Positions 7,051 through 62,252 of a DNA stretch of 64,000 nt are shown in pieces; positions within the stretch are counted from its first letter, which is position 1; every line of letters starts with the position of its first letter. Source of the DNA: an uncultured Clostridia bacterium (lineage in GTDB: Bacteria > Bacillota > Clostridia > TANB77 > CAG-508). The stretch lies in assembly GCA_934177485.1 (NCBI GenBank), contig CAKPPF010000005.1:11241-75240 (forward strand), read 5' to 3'. The translations under genes were made by a program, and so were the position numbers. The notes beneath the pieces are model-generated. The model saw only the letters and a program-made list of their open reading frames with translations, was not told where the DNA came from and made no database searches.

Positions 7051-7170
7051 ATAGTAGGAAATTTCTAATTTCCTACTATATAAAAATAGCTAAACGCATG
7101 CCCTTTGAGATTTTCTCCTTACAGTCGAAAACTCAAATCGGGCGCGAACAAAGGGCGACCTAAAGTCGCT
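7051..7170. repeat. Composite intergenic element: module D hairpin + module C (inverted) + module B hairpin
   Basis: atagtaggaaatttctaatttcctactata (D). rc of cgcccgatttgagttttcgac...aaaatctcaaagggcatgcg (C). cgaacaaagggcgacctaaagtcgctttgttcg (B). Confidence 0.7.
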
Positions 7171-7181
7171 TTGTTCGCTTT

Positions 7182-7526
7182 TTATAGACCAAAGCTTACG
7201 CCTATAGCATTATTTATTTTATCTAATGTTTTTTCATCTTCTATGTGACCTATTTTTTCTTTTAGTCTGCTTTTGTCTATAGTTCTAATTTGTTCCGCTA
7301 ATACTACTGAGTCAGATTTTAGTCCATATGTTTTGGAATCTATTTCTATATGTGTAGGTAATTTGTTTTTTGTAGTCTGAGAAGTAATTGCAGCAGCAAT
7401 TACAGTAGGACTATATTTATTTCCCATATCATTTTGAATAATTAGAACTGGTCTTACTCCCCCTTGTTCAGATCCAACGACCGGACTTAAATCTGCATAA
7501 AACATATCTCCTCTTTTAACTATCAT
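7182..7526 (-). CDS. mazF: MazF/PemK-family endoribonuclease toxin (EndoA/NdoA-like)
   Basis: [33 protein letters not shown]... is near-identical to the N-terminus of Bacillus NdoA. RBS AGGAGTG precedes the ATG at 7526. The ORF track used an upstream GTG. Confidence 0.88.
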
Positions 7527-7603
7527 AACATTCACTCCTAGTGTATCAGTTTTAGGATTATAGATATATTTTTTAGTTCTAAAATGAGATTAAATAGTTA
7601 AAA

Positions 7604-60000: not shown

Positions 60001-61903
60001 TCATATATTTCATATGAGAAAAATCAATCTTTTCCTCTAATATGTATGAATACTTTGTTTCTTCTAATGTTTTTTTACTAATTTTTATGACTTTAATTTG
60101 GTCACCTTTTACGCAGTATGTAGGTTTTGATAAATCCTCTATTGCTTTATCATTTAATTCAAATTTATATATATATCCATCACCATTATCTATTGCAGTT
60201 CTCTTTAATGAAATATTATTAGCTATTATTTCATTTAATTGTTCAGATTCATTTTCTGCCAAATCTGTCACAGTTCCATTTAGTACTATTAGAGCTTCTC
60301 CTCCATCAGCTTCTGATATATCATATTGGTAAACTATTTTTGTACTATCTTCTGAAAATGTTTTTGTATATTTTCCTTTTCCTTCTATTCCTCCAAAAGA
60401 TATTTGTAGGGTTGTATTATCTTTACCAATTTTTTCGCTAAATGTTGCCTCAACTGTTATTAAGTTTTCATTTTGATTAGCAACACAATTTATTAATGTT
60501 GGTTTTTCTTTGTCTATCCATGTTACATGTAAATCAACTATTTTACTATTTCCTGCTTTATCAAAGTATGTTATATCTTCTTTTCCGTTTTTATCGAATT
60601 CAATTTTGTAAATTTTATTATACTCTTTTGCTGTAGATGTTTTAACATCTTCATCAAATGTTATAATTGCTGTTACATTTTGATTTGTAGGTTGATCGCT
60701 GTTAGGAACATATTCAACTTCACAATTAGGTGCTGTTTTATCTATTGTAAAGTAATACTCAGTACATTCGTTATACTTTGAATTTTCTAACATTTTTCCA
60801 ACATCGGTTAATTTTACTGCATCAGTTGTTATTTTATATGTAATTAATTTGTATTCTCCATCATCCTCTAATTCTGGGAAAAACACATTCCCTGTGTTAA
60901 ATTTTATATAATTGTTTGTATAATAATTTATATCTTTCACTTGTTTATATAAATTAATTGATGGTTGAACTGATTTTGATATTGCTTCTCTAGCTGATTC
61001 CAAGTTAAGGTCATTTATATTCAAGTTTATATCATTAGCATCAGCAAGTGATTTCATTTCTTCTAAGATTTCATTGTCAGCTGGAAGATTTACTGCAGCA
61101 TTTAGATACAACTGTACATCATCAGCTGATATTTTTCCATCAAAATTATAATCTGAAATCATTTTTGCTACTAGTATTCTACTTTTTTCTTCTTCTGTTC
61201 TATTTTCATTGCCAATATCTCTATTAAATACATCAATTCCTAGTCCTAAAGATAGTCTTAAAACAGCTCTTGCATCATTTACTTCTATATTAAATCCTTC
61301 CATTATATTATCATCAGAACTTGGATTTAATTCTACAAGAGGGTTTCCAATATAATAAGGATGTGCTTCGCCGTTATTTGTCTTATATCTTGCTGCTGAA
61401 TATAGAATTATTTGATAATCTACATTGTTTATCAATCCATCTCCATTTATATCAGCAACTATTTTTTGCAATGCGGTTAAATCATTTTCTCCTGCTAAAT
61501 ATCCCCATATTAAGGCTGCATCATATTCATTTATTTTTCCATTATTATCCACATCACCTAACATATATTTATATGTCAAATTATTCTTTTCATTTGTATA
61601 AGTTTCCCATTTGCCTTCTGAATTTCTCCTTTGAAGTTCAACATATCTAATGTTGTCATCTCCAGTTTGCGGATAAATATTAATATTTGTATTATAGTAT
61701 TTTGTTTCATTTTCTGCCGTTGCAAGGTCTTTACCTGTAACGCTTGTCGCAGACATTTTATTGGTAGCTAATTTTCTTATAGTTAATTCGCTTCCTTTGT
61801 AATTAGCCATAATGCCAACTATGAGCATTAATACTACCGCTATCGTAGTAACTATAAATGCAATAGTTTTTCTTTTTGAATTTGTTATGATTTTGGATTT
61901 CAT
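54026..61903 (-). CDS. Giant (2,626 aa) surface protein with an N-terminal signal-anchor, two N-terminal and one C-terminal dockerin modules, and >15 Ig-like/Big-type beta-sandwich repeats
   Basis: Dockerin Ca-binding repeats: DVDNNGKINEYDAALIWGYLAG, DINGDGLINNVDYQIILY, DYNFDGKISADDVQLYL, and C-terminal DVNGDGKVTFLEDVVMANNYRIG / DINNNSTIDFIQDIVAINNYRLG. AAGAGGT RBS before the ATG at 61903 (track start 62020 is upstream). Confidence 0.8.
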   Translation of the reverse strand: MKSKIITNSKRKTIAFIVTTIAVVLMLIVGIMANYKGSELTIRKLATNKMSATSVTGKDLATAENETKYYNTNINIYPQTGDDNIRYVELQRRNSEGKWETYTNEKNNLTYKYMLGDVDNNGKINEYDAALIWGYLAGENDLTALQKIVADINGDGLINNVDYQIILYSAARYKTNNGEAHPYYIGNPLVELNPSSDDNIMEGFNIEVNDARAVLRLSLGLGIDVFNRDIGNENRTEEEKSRILVAKMISDYNFDGKISADDVQLYLNAAVNLPADNEILEEMKSLADANDINLNINDLNLESAREAISKSVQPSINLYKQVKDINYYTNNYIKFNTGNVFFPELEDDGEYKLITYKITTDAVKLTDVGKMLENSKYNECTEYYFTIDKTAPNCEVEYVPNSDQPTNQNVTAIITFDEDVKTSTAKEYNKIYKIEFDKNGKEDITYFDKAGNSKIVDLHVTWIDKEKPTLINCVANQNENLITVEATFSEKIGKDNTTLQISFGGIEGKGKYTKTFSEDSTKIVYQYDISEADGGEALIVLNGTVTDLAENESEQLNEIIANNISLKRTAIDNGDGYIYKFELNDKAIEDLSKPTYCVKGDQIKVIKISKKTLEETKYSYILEEKIDFSHMKYMKLIDKKDENESNRAEFYTTDKEKKNIDITQANIYFDTVAPTVAINVGVDVANENNVYTKGTNLNISAVASEIIPNAEETIPQINVLFSNSGLGKDNFQTDSKKGNARLVDITEEDGKTVWKYIYTIQNGDDGDVIIDYASDIEIRDIVGNKSLLAATPKEITDGEVKLDQTIDEINTVSYEIYKNDKQLTDFKKATYFEDGDKIKVIVKFKNALYNGDNGKLINKNEAPILYIETSANEKINMSAQQVNESGNTITYEYTIKDLKNSKLMNMYMYSNVTMWPNVAKWPDTDKSLHNPIGPGNIAPIDINNCNLFIYNSNTEIDTGKIKTDTTAPTVKISAKNIDTNEIIENGLTNASEIEYSFKWSEEVFGFTIEDLTIINGTPKELIQDENDKTLYTLVVKNDIADGSNGTIKVIVNRDAVKDIVGHSNERFENEIRVDRQAAILIGLEAYAENEIKVNSEVDSVKRYYKAGEKVTIIATFNENINLVDDKVPDLALKFAESGNAKNNVELPEKIDGNKIIYTYVLADNDNGELSVKGFTGNVVDAAGNKTVVTKRALDGDTIIADTISPNLKELKIISPASGIYKAETVVAVEAIFDEEVYVLENNEIKNVTEKTAPIVNIKIGASEEISLSFSEYGTNNGKIDKTKLVYTYRIRGEEKDEQGKLTYNGDNGIVSIVKIENVQNAQVCDIAGNIATLTVNQTGNEINVDTIRPYVDSITATVENPLILGTDPYYKAGNDIKITLTFSEKVNSAKIQPKILVGFSENADQKPQSYSEYSYESDWNVNSTTVEYTYTIKDGDNGYLWVEVPEGQFADAAGNSNTAKDAQIIKNIYADTTAPYVAVNTDGTAKWNIEYIKNEDGQITGIKAEGMFNEIIYSMSENTLTDLTYIPVMGIFINGNLEDTAENPKVEQENGQTKLTYEKDITKIDKTGNISVNLISGTVYDRAGNIWSIDLGNGDTTSPIFKDIKVVTPIGFYNKGKVIEIVARFEEQTKLTNVPKLKIRLGDTVKELDGSYDKYDIENTENIKVARYSYTIVDENGALNIISLIGKVSDGLRERDIKQIYIDENKDEINGKANELLNSIETNYANSSDENSNVIADTIRPYVTSIVAMVGDNEIATYTKEEGKDAVITVGRTNANSIKYIVTMSEDIFLSNVDKILVTNGNVINVKRTDKNIFTIDVQATTEGVQSLILQDGVAEDRAGNLNEFARLDGVTIDFTCPLVRFISEYNGGEYVIPTNIGKIEIRPNIEINEEISKVEYKWDEEEFTEVKNYSSSSDIAIPSKTFEETGKYTLYIKATDLAGNQTITNKVYIVYYSSISFDYNDEYTNKDLEVKVEFGKGLTDNRKVLFKANNSKDIVQLNAIGTDGDKIKYSIPENGILYAEATDKVGNKVFNQTTITNIDKESPIVKLETNGGNLVIGTGKDKATIKSIINVEDENLSSIEYAITNINTSVENVTPENIKENAGLSFTTIENYSEAKIENAVEGTYYIYVIAKDKAENTTIYKSEAFTVANSNKLKGENGEVIYAPAAENTIKFTREKSIVYVDFGYNLSENQRITLTNDEDGIVYENNAEIFKSTVVTATAEDICGNSVKMTYTVENVEGPKFEVQGDLEHWTNEDIELNVISYDNLSALTVNGEDILKNKMKVIIKENGDYTFKATDIYGNSTEKIIKVSNIDKVKPVISKVEVNGNDITITANDELSGLSEYAVTKTTEVPVEWSSSNTISTTKDGTFYVWAKDKAGNITIGENTAVVDTTAPTITFEYMSLTVTVGMPIEANIKTNELAKISYSWDNKTWIDSNEFNTSIKVSEKSTKPGKYTLYAKAIDTANNASEVTKVEFSVENIEDIRQPEIIFEDLAIIQINGVKYVKISPNTTKELLTDKMNKTALCGVTPEYKNLTEDGKLKTGSEILLNGETKYIIAVKGDVNGDGKVTFLEDVVMANNYRIGIISLSTVQKLASDINNNSTIDFIQDIVAINNYRLGIIKEL

Positions 61904-62203
61904 AATTTGATACCTCTTTCTTTGAAATATAATTTCACTTAATTTTATTATAAAATCTTTTTTAAAAAAATCAATACTGAAAATTTTGGTAATTTGTTTT
62001 ATTACATAAAAATATATCAAATTTTGTTACGGAAGTACTTTGAGCATATTTTCATATTCTAAATATTAATTTTGTATTACAAATATGTAACAATATTCTT
62101 TTCTTTTTATTTAGTTTACATGTTTCAACTTATGTATACTTATGTCAGACATAAGATCTGCCAATATATTTTAGATTTGTATTCATTTGCTGAATTATAT
62201 TTC

Positions 62204-62252
62204 GGGCAGGCATGTAGGAATAGTTCTTGTGCCTATCCTTCCTGCCCCTACA
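62204..62252. repeat. Module-A repeat, long variant, copy 9
   Basis: gggcaggcatgtaggaatagttcttgtgcctatccttcctgcccctaca. Confidence 0.75.

What the first reader, a model, noticed from the sequence alone, without database searches (positions are those of the whole stretch)
7051..62252. Dispersed modular family of GC-rich palindromic intergenic repeats (BOX/REP-like)
This 25%-GC genome carries 9 copies in 64 kb of a GGGCAGG(C/T)ACAAGACCTGCCC(CC)TACA hairpin (module A).
- Three are extended palindromic variants (16237, 35337, 62204).
- They are often concatenated with four other recurring modules: B (aacaaagcgac...gtcgccctttgtt hairpin), C (cgccgatttgagttt.cga...aaatctcaaagg...agcgattatag), D (atatagtagga...tcctactatata hairpin) and E (aagaaaagtggcttcgccac...).
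- Composite elements sit at 7051-7170, 8289-8520, 14762-14862, 32950-33020 and 39353-39528. An E-like copy also sits at 3476-3546.
- All copies are intergenic, often right at gene 3' ends, and some double as terminators (35337, 44284).
This mosaic organisation is reminiscent of pneumococcal BOX or Neisseria Correia elements. I do not recognise it as a described clostridial repeat family. The elements may drive the fragmented synteny seen in this window.
Basis: seen in the sequence. Interest (0 to 1): 0.7.

Follow-up and report, generated by a model that had tools for sequence, protein, structure and literature searches.

The report
REP hairpins plus unrelated mosaic repeats
The repeats are real, but they are several unrelated families sharing the same gene spacers: one is an ordinary, already described kind of bacterial hairpin repeat (a REP) whose exact sequence turns up in at least 15 phyla, and the others are undescribed multi-hairpin repeats confined to low-GC bacteria found largely in human-gut metagenomes.

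Summary
**Observation:** confirmed. The window, from an uncultured gut Clostridia MAG with about 27% GC, holds 9 module-A copies, 4 B-C-D composites and 3 E copies. All lie between housekeeping genes.

**Interpretation:** partly right.
- **Module A** is a canonical 25-nt GTAG-tagged REP (GTAG-GGGCAGG-TCTTGTG-CCTGCCC). This is the format published for REPs of RAYT/TnpA_REP subclass 2.4 (Bertels group 4).
  - Its exact 19-mer, plus a conserved CCCTAC flank that was not searched for, occurs in MAGs of about 15 phyla (26-71% GC).
  - It also occurs in frame inside RAYT genes.
- **Four 51-nt copies** are hairpin-in-hairpin REPs, seen only in this lineage.
- **B-C-D is one unit of about 135-150 nt**, independent of A. 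About 72 low-GC metagenome loci carry it, almost always without A.
  - It has a near-invariant core hairpin.
  - It has a covarying AT-rich palindrome.
  - It has an interchangeable hairpin that looks like a transcription terminator on both strands.
- **E** is a sister unit with the same layout.

No Rfam, plasmid, phage or literature match exists for B-E. Strains with identical flanking proteins differ exactly at these repeats. No RAYT gene was found for this lineage, and I could not test for one.

**Verdict:** a new member of a known kind, plus an undescribed lineage-specific mosaic repeat. Interest is moderate.

The parts
8289..8317 (-). Module A, simple REP. On the - strand it reads TTGTAGGGGGG-CAGG.. 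= GTAG + GGGCAGG/TCTTGTG/CCTGCCC. It lies 32 nt upstream of the start of ORF 7604-8257 and abuts B-C-D.
   Evidence: As ssDNA it folds at -8.6 kcal/mol, z = -3.5. Homology with strain L118 ends at 8313, in the CTAC foot.
10762..10788 (-). Module A, simple REP with a degenerate tag (TAATAG). It lies between the minE stop codon and the rodA start codon.
   Evidence: The copy is conserved in strain L118.
31666..31693 (-). Module A, diverged REP (GAGCAGG CATAAAA CCTGCCC CCCTACA). It lies 16 nt downstream of the ksgA-like gene 31709-32560.
44283..44303 (-). Module A, REP without a GTAG tag. It lies 13 nt downstream of the gatB stop codon and looks like a terminator on both strands. It is the site of a REP-bounded indel between strains.
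53016..53041 (-). Module A, perfect REP with a CTACA foot. It lies between the cohesin-anchor gene and the RNase III gene.
   Evidence: Five short-read contigs from other samples end exactly here.
16237..16285 (.). Nested 51-nt REP. The outer arms GGGCAGG..CCTGCC have their foot on the + strand. They enclose a complete 25-nt REP on the opposite strand (GTAG-GGATAGG-TCTTGTG-CCTATCC).
   Evidence: (family D7). It folds at -11.1 kcal/mol, z = -4.0. It is present in all strains sampled.
35337..35387 (.). Nested REP, 24 nt downstream of the stop codon of PBP gene 33088-35313. The outer foot is GTGG-like.
   Evidence: Fold z = -1.85. The simple scan does not score it as a terminator.
39353..39400 (.). 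Decayed nested REP that abuts a B-C-D unit.
   Evidence: (63% identical to the reference copy). It no longer folds better than shuffled sequence, z = -0.25.
62204..62252 (.). Nested REP with a CTACA foot, 51 nt downstream of the AI-2E transporter gene 62303-63421.
   Evidence: (91% identical to the copy at 16233).
8318..8450 (+). B-C-D unit, made of hairpin B, core hairpin C, a linker and palindrome D.
   Evidence: B scores as a terminator on both strands.
7047..7176 (-). B-C-D unit, inverted relative to the unit at 8318. Together the two bracket mazF and an unknown ORF.
   Evidence: (83.6% identical).
14758..14865 (+). B-C-D unit with the AT-only form of hairpin 1 (B'), downstream of the Fic gene.
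   Evidence: It is fixed in 10 strains, and 5 contigs end inside its D hairpin.
39401..39541 (+). B-C-D unit with the E1 form of hairpin 1 (GTGGCTTCGCCAC) and the D' palindrome, immediately after the tuf terminator.
   Evidence: This spacer shows three different alleles among strains with identical EF-Tu.
8449..8560 (+). E unit. It has the same layout as B-C-D (terminator-like hairpin, a different core, AT-rich palindrome) and sits directly after the dus terminator.
3439..3546 (-). Diverged E unit.
   Evidence: 69% identical over 106 nt.
32925..33005 (-). Partial E unit (the palindrome-proximal half).
   Evidence: 89% identical over 81 nt.

Best explanation
The window shows at least three unrelated families of short intergenic repeats that have piled up in the same gene spacers of an uncultured low-GC gut Clostridia genome.

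**(1) Module A is a REP (repetitive extragenic palindrome).**
- It is 25 nt: a 5'-GTAG tag at the foot of a 7-bp GC-rich stem (GGGCAGG/CCTGCCC) with a 7-nt loop (TCTTGTG).
- This is the substrate type of the HUH/Y1 'REP-associated tyrosine transposases' of subclass 2.4 (group 4).
- By analogy with E. coli TnpA_REP (inferred, not shown here), the enzyme binds the folded hairpin in single-stranded DNA, reads the GTAG tag, and cuts and rejoins next to it. That would seed new copies and make REPs breakpoints for insertion and deletion.
- The 51-nt forms are a lineage-specific two-tier unit: a complete REP on one strand sits inside the split stem of a REP on the other strand. They appear to have spread as a unit, like a REPIN.

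**(2) B-C-D is a single mosaic unit of about 135-150 nt.**
- It has a terminator-like hairpin with three interchangeable forms, a near-invariant core hairpin with a conserved linker, and a covarying AT-rich palindrome.
- E is a sister unit with another core.
- I read these as non-autonomous repeats in the manner of BIME or BOX elements. They usually sit immediately after a host gene's terminator, add terminators that work in both directions, and can occur in tandem.
- How they spread is unknown.

**(3) Consequence.** Because all these repeats are palindromic and multicopy, they act as recombination and insertion hot spots. Small accessory cassettes (MazF, ParE toxin-antitoxin pairs, a 107-aa gene) come and go at them.
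For: **Module A is a subclass-2.4 REP**
- The format GTAG+GGGC...GCCC, 25 nt with three G-C pairs at the foot, matches the subclass 2.4 REP list of Quentin et al. 2018 (PMC6006769). An example is C. hutchinsonii GTAGGGGCGACCCTTGCGGTCGCCC.
  - By the record titles these come from about 15 phyla, with locus GC from 26% to 71%.
  - The CCTAC flank was not part of the search pattern, yet 157 of 176 hairpins with a CACAAG-type loop carry it.
  - Neighbouring REPs keep the tag and loop but swap the stem (GGCAAC, GGCGAC, GGCACC).

**Link to RAYT genes**
- In L039, L105 and L003 the REP lies in frame inside a RAYT gene, after the NHFH motif. In L071 it lies 172 nt from one.
- The RAYT query found 7068 homologues. 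Of the best 120, 11 carry peptides encoded by the A-type REP and 38 carry peptides of the GGGCGAC/GGGCAAC type.

**A and B-C-D are independent**
- Searches show their separate distributions.

**B-C-D is a single structured unit**
- The evidence is a 48-sequence alignment.
- 95.9% of cells pair, against at most 49% when the partners are slid.
- 77 cells show changes on both sides, against 21 in shuffles.
- B and E1 score as terminators: 7 found against 0.3 expected.
- The gene on the D side converges on the unit in 55 of 68 cases.

**Strain differences at the repeats**
- L118 is 99.9% identical to the window until the foot of the REP at 8313, then different.
- In the gatB-rpsL spacer, strains carry either one REP or a 107-aa gene between two REP copies.
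- Downstream of tuf there are three alleles, one of which has B-C-D inverted.
- The number of ParE cassettes is 1 or 2 depending on the strain.

**Multicopy in other samples**
- Contigs from other samples end at the REP or inside the D hairpin.
Against: - **No RAYT gene for this lineage.** None was found in the window or in about 0.66 Mb of low-GC loci. The cognate enzyme is therefore unproven and the REPs could be orphans.
- **No replication-strand bias.** Across phyla, REP orientation against local GC skew is 61 versus 45 loci, p = 0.18. In the window all 5 simple copies share one orientation, but that is confounded with gene direction.
- **No clean empty site.** The copies at 10762, 16237 and 53016, and the B-C-D unit at 14758, are fixed in every strain sampled. 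Recent mobility is not shown.
- **B-C-D and E lack transposon hallmarks.** I saw no terminal inverted repeats, target duplication or conserved flank, and no candidate enzyme in the window. 'Non-autonomous mobile repeat' therefore rests on copy number and strain differences only.
- **Non-independent counts.** Several metagenome loci are the same orthologous site in different samples, so the orientation count includes copies that are not independent.
Confidence: 0.7

Rival explanations
1. A to E are interchangeable modules of one repeat family that spreads as a mosaic, like pneumococcal BOX elements.
For: - A abuts B-C-D at 8289 and 39353, and E abuts B-C-D at 8449.
- Hairpin 1 of B-C-D really does exist in three swapped forms, and one of them is the E1 hairpin.
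Against: - About 72 B-C-D loci in relatives carry only about 4 A copies.
- A occurs in about 15 phyla that were not found to carry B-E.
- B, C and D occur together, in a fixed order, in nearly all retrieved copies (a few, such as L120, L150 and L196_8047, lack D).
- Only 2 of the 9 A copies in the window touch another module.
Confidence: 0.08
2. B-C-D and E units are small-RNA gene cassettes.
- On the strand that runs the same way as the upstream gene, the conserved linker reads TGCTATAAT, an extended -10 promoter element.
- It is followed by the core hairpin, whose loop carries a CCUC/CUCC motif complementary to ribosome-binding sites.
- Hairpin B or E1 then acts as the terminator, giving an RNA of about 78 nt.
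- The D palindrome would be an operator or insulator.
For: - In most copies the hexamer keeps T-A-x-x-x-T (TATAAT, TACAAT, TAAAAT, TATACT), and its two central A residues are invariant.
- The orientation bias places this strand downstream of, and co-directional with, the neighbouring gene in 55 of 68 cases.
- B and E1 score as intrinsic terminators.
- Both loop variants keep the CUCC/CCUC motif.
Against: - The consensus scan finds no -35 element.
- One subfamily (window 7047, L162, L196) lacks the hexamer.
- G-U against A-C mismatches are balanced, 30 to 23, so no strand-specific RNA selection is visible.
- The unit occurs in the opposite orientation behind tuf in L264.
- There are no expression data.
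Confidence: 0.2
3. B-C-D and E are miniature derivatives of an insertion sequence present elsewhere in these genomes. For example, they could be palindrome-associated elements of the IS200/IS605 type. A transposase supplied in trans would recognise the subterminal hairpins.
For: - The units are multicopy, have hairpins at both ends and lack terminal inverted repeats.
- Presence and orientation differ between strains.
- Units occur in tandem and as inverted pairs bracketing a cassette.
Against: - No conserved target tetranucleotide or pentanucleotide is evident at the left end.
- The two terminal hairpins are unrelated to each other.
- I did not screen the about 0.6 Mb of loci specifically for a parent element with an ORF. 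No transposase lies in the window.
- The units have no match in the plasmid or phage collections.
Confidence: 0.15
4. The A hairpins are simply native Rho-independent terminators that look alike by convergence.
For: - Most copies lie 13-115 nt after a stop codon.
- The copy at 44284 passes the terminator scan.
Against: - The same 25-mer, with its GTAG foot, is found in about 15 phyla and inside RAYT reading frames.
- Most copies have no T-run. The copy at 35337 fails the scan.
- The copy at 8289 lies upstream of a gene start.
Confidence: 0.02

Closest known systems
GTAG-tagged REPs associated with RAYT/TnpA_REP subclass 2.4 (= Bertels group 4). Sources: Quentin et al. 2018, BMC Genomics 19:475; Di Nocera et al. 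2013, BMC Genomics 14:522; Bertels et al. 2017, GBE 9:2110.
   Same: - The same 25-nt format applies: a GTAG tag, a stem starting GGGC and ending GCCC with three G-C pairs at the foot, and a short loop.
- The copies are extragenic and multicopy.
[quoted passage not shown]
- The taxonomic spread is wide and patchy.
   Different: - The host is a 27%-GC gut Clostridia MAG. The sections and terms I checked in those papers (Di Nocera term search and GTAG-families section, Quentin Table 1 and part of Table S1, Bertels group-4 passages) do not list group 4 or GTAG REPs in Clostridia or Firmicutes.
- No RAYT gene was found for this lineage.
- The particular GGGCAGG/TCTTGTG variant is the same across about 15 phyla. 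REP families are usually described as specific to a species or genus.
- The 51-nt nested form was seen only here.
REPINs (inverted REP doublets that are the unit of replication; Bertels & Rainey 2011, PLoS Genet 7:e1002132)
   Same: - The nested 51-nt copies contain two REPs in opposite orientation, fold into one long hairpin, and recur as a unit. There are 4 copies, 63-91% identical to the reference copy.
- In other phyla, A typically forms head-to-head doublets with a GGGCRAC-type REP.
   Different: - In the window one REP lies inside the loop of the other, rather than beside it with a spacer.
- The two stems differ in sequence (GGGCAGG versus GGATAGG).
E. coli BIMEs (mosaics of REPs and conserved linker motifs). 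This comparison is from my own knowledge and the summaries in PMC2817692 and PMC3333891.
   Same: - Palindromic units and conserved non-palindromic linkers form a mosaic between genes.
- Tandem arrangements occur.
- They sit mainly downstream of genes.
   Different: - B, C, D and E are not REPs. They have no GTAG tag and are AT-rich.
- They occur without A in relatives.
Pneumococcal BOX elements and Neisseria Correia elements (from my own knowledge; not tested by sequence)
   Same: - They are short, modular, multi-hairpin intergenic repeats.
- They can carry terminators or promoters and mark variable spacers.
   Different: - The unit ends are not inverted repeats, and no TA target duplication was evident at the flanks inspected (not scored systematically).
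- No sequence relationship was shown.
- The host lineage is different.

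Membership tests
REP (GTAG superfamily, RAYT subclass 2.4 type) | A short imperfect palindrome (20-40 nt) that folds into a stable stem-loop | tested here: met
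   A 7-bp stem with a 7-nt loop. ssDNA fold energy is -8.6 kcal/mol, z = -3.5, and no shuffle of 200 folds as well.
REP (GTAG superfamily, RAYT subclass 2.4 type) | A conserved GT[AG]G tetranucleotide at the 5' foot of the hairpin | tested here: met
   - CTAC(A) follows the hairpin at 8289, 31666, 53016 and 62204, and follows the inner REPs at 16251 and 35352.
- The outer foot at 35337 is GTGG.
- The tag is degenerate at 10762 and 44283.
- Across phyla, 157 of 176 hairpins with a CACAAG-type loop carry CCTAC.
REP (GTAG superfamily, RAYT subclass 2.4 type) | The subclass 2.4 format: 25 nt, with the foot of the stem made of three consecutive G-C pairs (GGGC...GCCC) | tested here: met
   GTAG-GGGCAGG-TCTTGTG-CCTGCCC compared with the entries in Quentin Table S1.
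REP (GTAG superfamily, RAYT subclass 2.4 type) | High copy number, confined to extragenic space | tested here: met
   - Nine copies in 64 kb, all intergenic.
- The genome-wide count could not be obtained.
REP (GTAG superfamily, RAYT subclass 2.4 type) | A cognate RAYT gene in the same genome, flanked by or containing the same REP | not testable with these tools
   - No RAYT in the window or in 0.66 Mb of low-GC loci.
- The feature is met in other phyla (L039, L105, L003; P0033, P0042, P0061 and others).
REPIN | Two inverted REPs separated by a spacer, forming one long hairpin that is the replicating unit | tested here: inconclusive
   - The nested 51-nt copies hold two opposed REPs and recur as a unit, but one lies inside the other.
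- Classical side-by-side doublets were seen only in other phyla.
BIME | A mosaic built from REPs in alternating orientation joined by conserved linkers | tested here: not met
   B-E carry no GTAG-tagged REP and occur without A in relatives.
MITE / Correia-type element | Terminal inverted repeats and a target-site duplication | tested here: not met
   - The unit ends (GAACAAAG... and ...TATATAA) are not inverted repeats of each other.
- The flanks of about 60 copies (about a dozen left flanks read closely) showed no evident duplication or conserved target.
Intrinsic (Rho-independent) terminator | A GC-containing stem-loop followed by a T-run | tested here: met
   - B and E1 hairpins pass on both strands: 7 sites against 0.3 expected, and 2 against 0.1.
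- The A copy at 44284 passes. The A copy at 35337 does not.
- These are consensus matches only, not evidence of function.
Any Rfam RNA family | A match to a curated covariance model | tested here: not met
   - No match at the gathering threshold in the window.
- Only chance-level miRNA-like hairpin hits at E-values up to 10.

The most novel reading that the evidence does not exclude
**Main reading.** The A repeat is a 'cosmopolitan' REP. One and the same 25-nt sequence is maintained from Poribacteria and Chloroflexota to Legionella, Saccharibacteria and gut Clostridia. The proposed reason is that group-4 RAYT genes carry seed copies of their own REP inside their reading frame and move horizontally as a self-contained REP-RAYT package. 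This would contrast with the prevailing picture of lineage-specific, vertically inherited REPIN-RAYT systems.

**Secondary reading.** The B-C-D and E units would be a new superfamily of self-terminating small-RNA cassettes that lodge right behind host terminators.
Probability: 0.35. Interest if true: 0.6.

Novelty: new member of a known kind. Interest (0 to 1): 0.42.

Why it matters
- **Reach of the REP/RAYT system.** It extends a known system (GTAG REPs of group-4 RAYTs) into uncultured low-GC gut Clostridia.
- **Cross-phylum identity.** One exact REP sequence is shared by about 15 phyla. That bears on whether REP-RAYT systems are always vertically inherited and lineage-specific.
- **A new repeat unit.** It defines a previously undescribed multi-hairpin repeat of about 140 nt, with a sister unit, that is widespread in low-GC metagenome contigs, many of them from human gut.
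- **Genome plasticity.** These repeats mark the exact points where closely related strains gain, lose or invert small accessory cassettes (toxin-antitoxin genes) between housekeeping genes.
- **Assembly.** The repeats break short-read assemblies.

Tried and rejected
- **Rfam.** The gathering-threshold search of the whole window found nothing. The E-value search of 7000-8600 and of 8 loci gave only chance miRNA-like hairpin hits.
- **tRNA or tmRNA origin.** None found.
- **Plasmids and phages.** blastn in 'distant' mode with 8280-8565 against both collections gave no match.
- **Literature string searches.** No paper holds the A 19-mers or the C and linker strings.
- **RAYT in the window or low-GC loci.** tblastn found only REP-encoded peptide matches.
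- **Transposase or recombinase in the window.** Pfam scans of 30 proteins, 29 of them window ORFs, found only housekeeping, toxin-antitoxin and surface proteins.
- **Replication-strand bias of A across phyla.** Tested with local GC skew: 61 versus 45 loci, p = 0.18, inconclusive.
- **Strand-specific RNA signal in B-C-D.** G-U against A-C mismatches are 30 to 23, so there is no asymmetry.
- **Clean empty sites.**
  - I looked among strains sharing identical Dus, S12, EF-Tu, Fic and cohesin proteins.
  - I found rearranged or alternative alleles but no simple filled/empty pair.
- **Nested 51-nt REP outside this lineage.** Not found in the 284 loci fetched.
- **The 29-bp-TIR MITE seen downstream of tuf in L259 and L262.** It is absent from the window.
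- **Scan limit.** It never reached the window's own relatives by name, so its counts are lower bounds.

Full report

Yes.
- The module-A consensus, with up to 3 mismatches, hits 6 sites against 0.00 expected in shuffles.
- The repeat finder independently recovers the simple copies (families D13 and D16) and a 54-nt extended family, D7, with four members: 16233, 35334, 39348 and 62200.
- A hairpin scan for the CACAAGA-type loop finds:
  - the five simple copies (8289, 10762, 31666, 44283, 53016), all with hairpin-CTAC on the + strand;
  - inner REPs on the opposite strand inside three of the four extended copies (16251, 35352, 39367); the fourth, at 62204, has too many stem mismatches to be flagged;
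  - a possible decayed copy at 62143.
- Sensitive blastn confirms the other modules:
  - B-C-D at 8318-8450, 7047-7176 (inverted), 14758-14865 and 39401-39541;
  - E at 8449-8560, 3439-3546 and 32925-33005.

The window is core chromosome. It carries rpsL-rpsG-fusA-tuf, gatCAB, minDE-rodA, dus, a PBP gene, ksgA, RNase III and plsX, plus three giant surface proteins. It has no transposase, tRNA or Rfam hit.

The organism is an uncultured Clostridia MAG from human gut metagenomes, including Hadza samples. Its EF-Tu cluster carries the NCBI name 'Clostridia bacterium', and orthologous loci encode SASP, cohesin and dockerin proteins.

**2. What module A is**

Read on the - strand, A is TGTAG-GGGCAGG-TCTTGTG-CCTGCCC. 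That is a GTAG tag at the foot of a 7-bp GC stem with a 7-nt loop, 25 nt in all.

- By their record titles the loci come from about 15 phyla: Chloroflexota, Poribacteria, Nitrospirota, Acidobacteriota, Gamma- and Zetaproteobacteria (including Legionella), Thermotogota, Desulfobacterota, Latescibacterota, Deinococcota, Bdellovibrionota, Planctomycetota, Saccharibacteria, Cyanobacteria, WOR-3 and Clostridia.
- Locus GC ranges from 26% to 71%.
- About 9 chance hits would be expected in the whole 596-Gb collection (my own arithmetic). However, the CCTAC flank was not searched for, and 157 of 176 hairpins with a CACAAG-type loop carry it.
- Neighbouring hairpins keep the tag and the loop but swap the stem (GGCAAC, GGCGAC, GGCACC).
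- The typical arrangement in other phyla is a head-to-head doublet: GTAG-GGGCRAC-CCTTGTG-GTYGCCC, a spacer, then GGGCAGG-CACAAGA-CCTGCCC-CTAC.

*Link to RAYT genes.* An unbiased clustering of ORFs near the motif found a Y1/HUH transposase-like protein in L039, L071 and L105; tblastn also found a partial match in L003.
- In L039, L105 and L003 the REP lies in frame inside the gene, for example ...MPNHFHGIII-VGAGLVPA...GQVQDLPLQ-.... In L071 it lies 172 nt away.
- The Pfam match to Y1_Tnp is weak.

*Match to published work.* Quentin et al. 2018 (PMC6006769) describe exactly this for TnpA_Y1 subclass 2.4, which equals Bertels group 4.
- The motifs are NH[IFV]H, WQ and YIxNNP.
- The REPs are 'long' or 'double foot', with three G-C pairs at the foot.
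- The distribution is 'Cyanobacteria, Bacteroidetes and various phyla'.
- Their Table S1 lists 25-nt REPs of the same format, for example GTAGGGGCGACCCTTGCGGTCGCCC.
- Bertels et al. 2017 report group 4 in 61 species of 17 classes.

*Size of the RAYT family.* The family is huge, with 7068 homologues. Among the best 120, 11 carry peptides encoded by the A-type REP (RAGTRPAPT, VGAGLVPA, GQAQDLPLQ) and 38 carry peptides of the GGGCGAC/GGGCAAC type.

Module A is therefore a canonical REP of a described kind.

*What is not described in the text I could search:*
- this exact variant;
- its presence in Clostridia;
- its identity across phyla.

**3. The extended copies**

Each is GGGCAGG-CA-[TGTAG-GGATAGG-TCTTGTG-CCTATCC]-TT-CCTGCCC-CTACA.
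- A complete 25-nt REP on one strand is enclosed by the split stem of a REP on the other strand.
- The best copy folds into a two-tier hairpin at -11.1 kcal/mol, z = -4.0. The copy at 39353 has decayed, z = -0.25.
- The four copies are 63-91% identical to the reference copy as whole units, so they spread as a unit, like a REPIN.
- This form was found only in this lineage among 284 loci.

**4. B, C, D and E are not modules of the same family**

A metagenome scan with a 16-mer from module C returned about 72 loci of 23-33% GC, many of them labelled human gut (the remaining hits, mostly at higher GC, look like chance matches).

In nearly all of them B, C and D occur together in one order, as a unit of about 135-150 nt (a few copies, such as L120, L150 and L196_8047, lack D):
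- **Hairpin 1** has three interchangeable forms:
  - B: GAACAAAGCGAC-TTTA-GTCGCCCTTTGTTC;
  - an AT-only form, B';
  - the E1 form: AAGAAAAGTGGCTTTGCCACACTTTTCTT.
- **Core hairpin C** is nearly invariant, with one strongly covarying pair (UA 23, CG 20, GC 2).
- **The linker** CAATAGCGATTATAGC is conserved.
- **Palindrome D** is AT-rich and has many compensatory changes.

Structure statistics:
- 95.9% of cells pair, against at most 49% when partners are slid.
- 77 cells change on both sides, against 21 in shuffles.

Those loci hold only about 4 A copies in about 0.53 Mb. The low-GC Clostridia MAG loci that carry A lack B-C-D. The two families are therefore independent.

E has the same layout: a terminator-like hairpin E1, a different core, and an AT-rich palindrome. 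It recurs in 11 loci. Downstream of dus, the E and B-C-D units stand in tandem. In strain L118 there is a third unit in the row.

Further properties:
- B and E1 score as intrinsic terminators on both strands.
- The units usually start right after the T-run of the upstream gene's own terminator.
- The gene on the D side converges on the unit in 55 of 68 cases. These cases are not all independent loci.
- No Rfam, plasmid, phage or literature match exists.

**5. How B-C-D might work**

Two readings remain open.

*A small-RNA cassette.*
- For: on the strand co-directional with the upstream gene, the linker reads TGCTATAAT (an extended -10). The core hairpin follows, with a CCUC/CUCC loop, and B then acts as terminator, giving an RNA of about 78 nt.
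- For: in most copies the hexamer keeps T-A-x-x-x-T.
- Against: there is no -35 element.
- Against: one subfamily lacks the hexamer.
- Against: G-U and A-C mismatches are balanced, 30 to 23.
- Against: the unit is inverted behind tuf in one strain.

*A passive, non-autonomous mosaic repeat* that supplies terminators for both directions. I favour this reading and give the sRNA reading about 0.2. No terminal inverted repeats, target duplication or conserved flank were evident in the copies inspected, so the mode of spread is unknown.

**6. Repeats as points of genome change**

- **Strain L118** is 99.9% identical to the window over 5.3 kb.
  - Homology ends at window 8313, in the CTAC foot of the REP.
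  - L118 lacks the REP, the unknown ORF and mazF, and continues into alr.
  - In the window that cassette lies between inverted B-C-D copies.
- **The gatB-rpsL spacer** takes two forms among strains with identical S12.
  - Some strains have one REP.
  - Others have a 107-aa gene with its own promoter, flanked by a degenerate REP on the left and a complete GTAG REP on the right.
  - The single-REP allele looks like the recombinant of the two.
- **Downstream of tuf**, strains with identical EF-Tu carry one of three alleles:
  - B-C-D plus the decayed nested REP;
  - a different 125-nt MITE with 29-bp terminal inverted repeats;
  - B-C-D in the opposite orientation, with B serving as the tuf terminator.
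  - One or two ParE toxin-antitoxin cassettes follow.
- **Stable copies.** The REPs at 10762, 16237 and 53016 and the B-C-D unit at 14758 are fixed in all strains sampled.
- **Assembly breaks.** Short-read contigs from other samples end exactly at the REP or inside the D hairpin, as expected for multicopy repeats.

**7. What could not be shown**

- No RAYT gene was found for this lineage. Only the window and about 0.66 Mb of low-GC loci could be searched.
- The orientation of A against local GC skew across phyla is not significant (61 versus 45, p = 0.18).
- There are no expression data.

**8. Verdict**

The 'REP-like' label is right for A and can be made precise: a GTAG REP of the RAYT subclass 2.4 (group 4) type. 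The 'single modular family' reading is wrong, because at least three independent families co-locate here.

Overall this is a new member of a known kind, plus an undescribed lineage-specific mosaic repeat. The most interesting loose end is that one exact REP sequence is shared across about 15 phyla and sits inside RAYT reading frames.

Noticed in passing
window 53155-62020 (-), 19332-31334 (-): A cellulosome-like surface system.
- A 2664-aa giant protein (54026-62020) whose orthologue carries dockerin and Big_12 domains is followed by a cohesin + Gram_pos_anchor protein (53155-53865).
- Two further giant ORFs (2404 and 1536 aa) contain 9/18-nt tandem repeats at 27730-27917.
   Followed up: partly
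window 38062-39350: Tandemly duplicated ParE-type toxin-antitoxin cassettes.
- The repeats are 84-94% identical and the toxins are 48% identical.
- They lie between plsX and the tuf-proximal repeats.
- Other strains with identical EF-Tu have one or two copies.
   Followed up: partly
window 7047-8450: mazF (7182-7535) and an unknown 217-aa ORF (7604-8257, no Pfam hit) are bracketed by inverted B-C-D units. They are absent from the otherwise 99.9% identical strain L118, which has alr there instead.
   Followed up: partly
L259 3746-3854; L262 3128-3236: A different MITE-like element of about 125 nt, with perfect 29-bp terminal inverted repeats (TGTCAATGGGGACGGAGTTTTTTGACAAC), occupies the spacer downstream of tuf in two strains. 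It is not present in the window.
   Followed up: partly
L018 5761-6010 (Poribacteria); L001, L048, L059, L069: In other phyla the A REP also forms head-to-tail arrays with a 28-nt period (9 copies in L018). It also forms arrays of half-REPs (GGGCAGGCACAAG plus 6-7 variable nt) leading into one full REP. I have no explanation for these.
   Followed up: no
L270-L274 and L280-L284 (orthologues of window ~14860 and ~53016): Short-read contigs from independent samples end inside the D hairpin of B-C-D or exactly at the end of the REP. These repeats evidently break assemblies.
   Followed up: partly
L265, L266, L269, L274 (upstream of the Fic gene; window ~16000-16500): A decayed M20-peptidase gene remnant shows a strain-specific internal deletion. 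In L269 the called ORF reads through the nested REP (...LEAGRIGTRPIPTCLPAKS*).
   Followed up: partly
window 4033-5736 (-): A 567-aa ORF with no Pfam hit contains internal repeats with a 60-nt period at 4280-5401 (repeat finder family D1).
   Followed up: no
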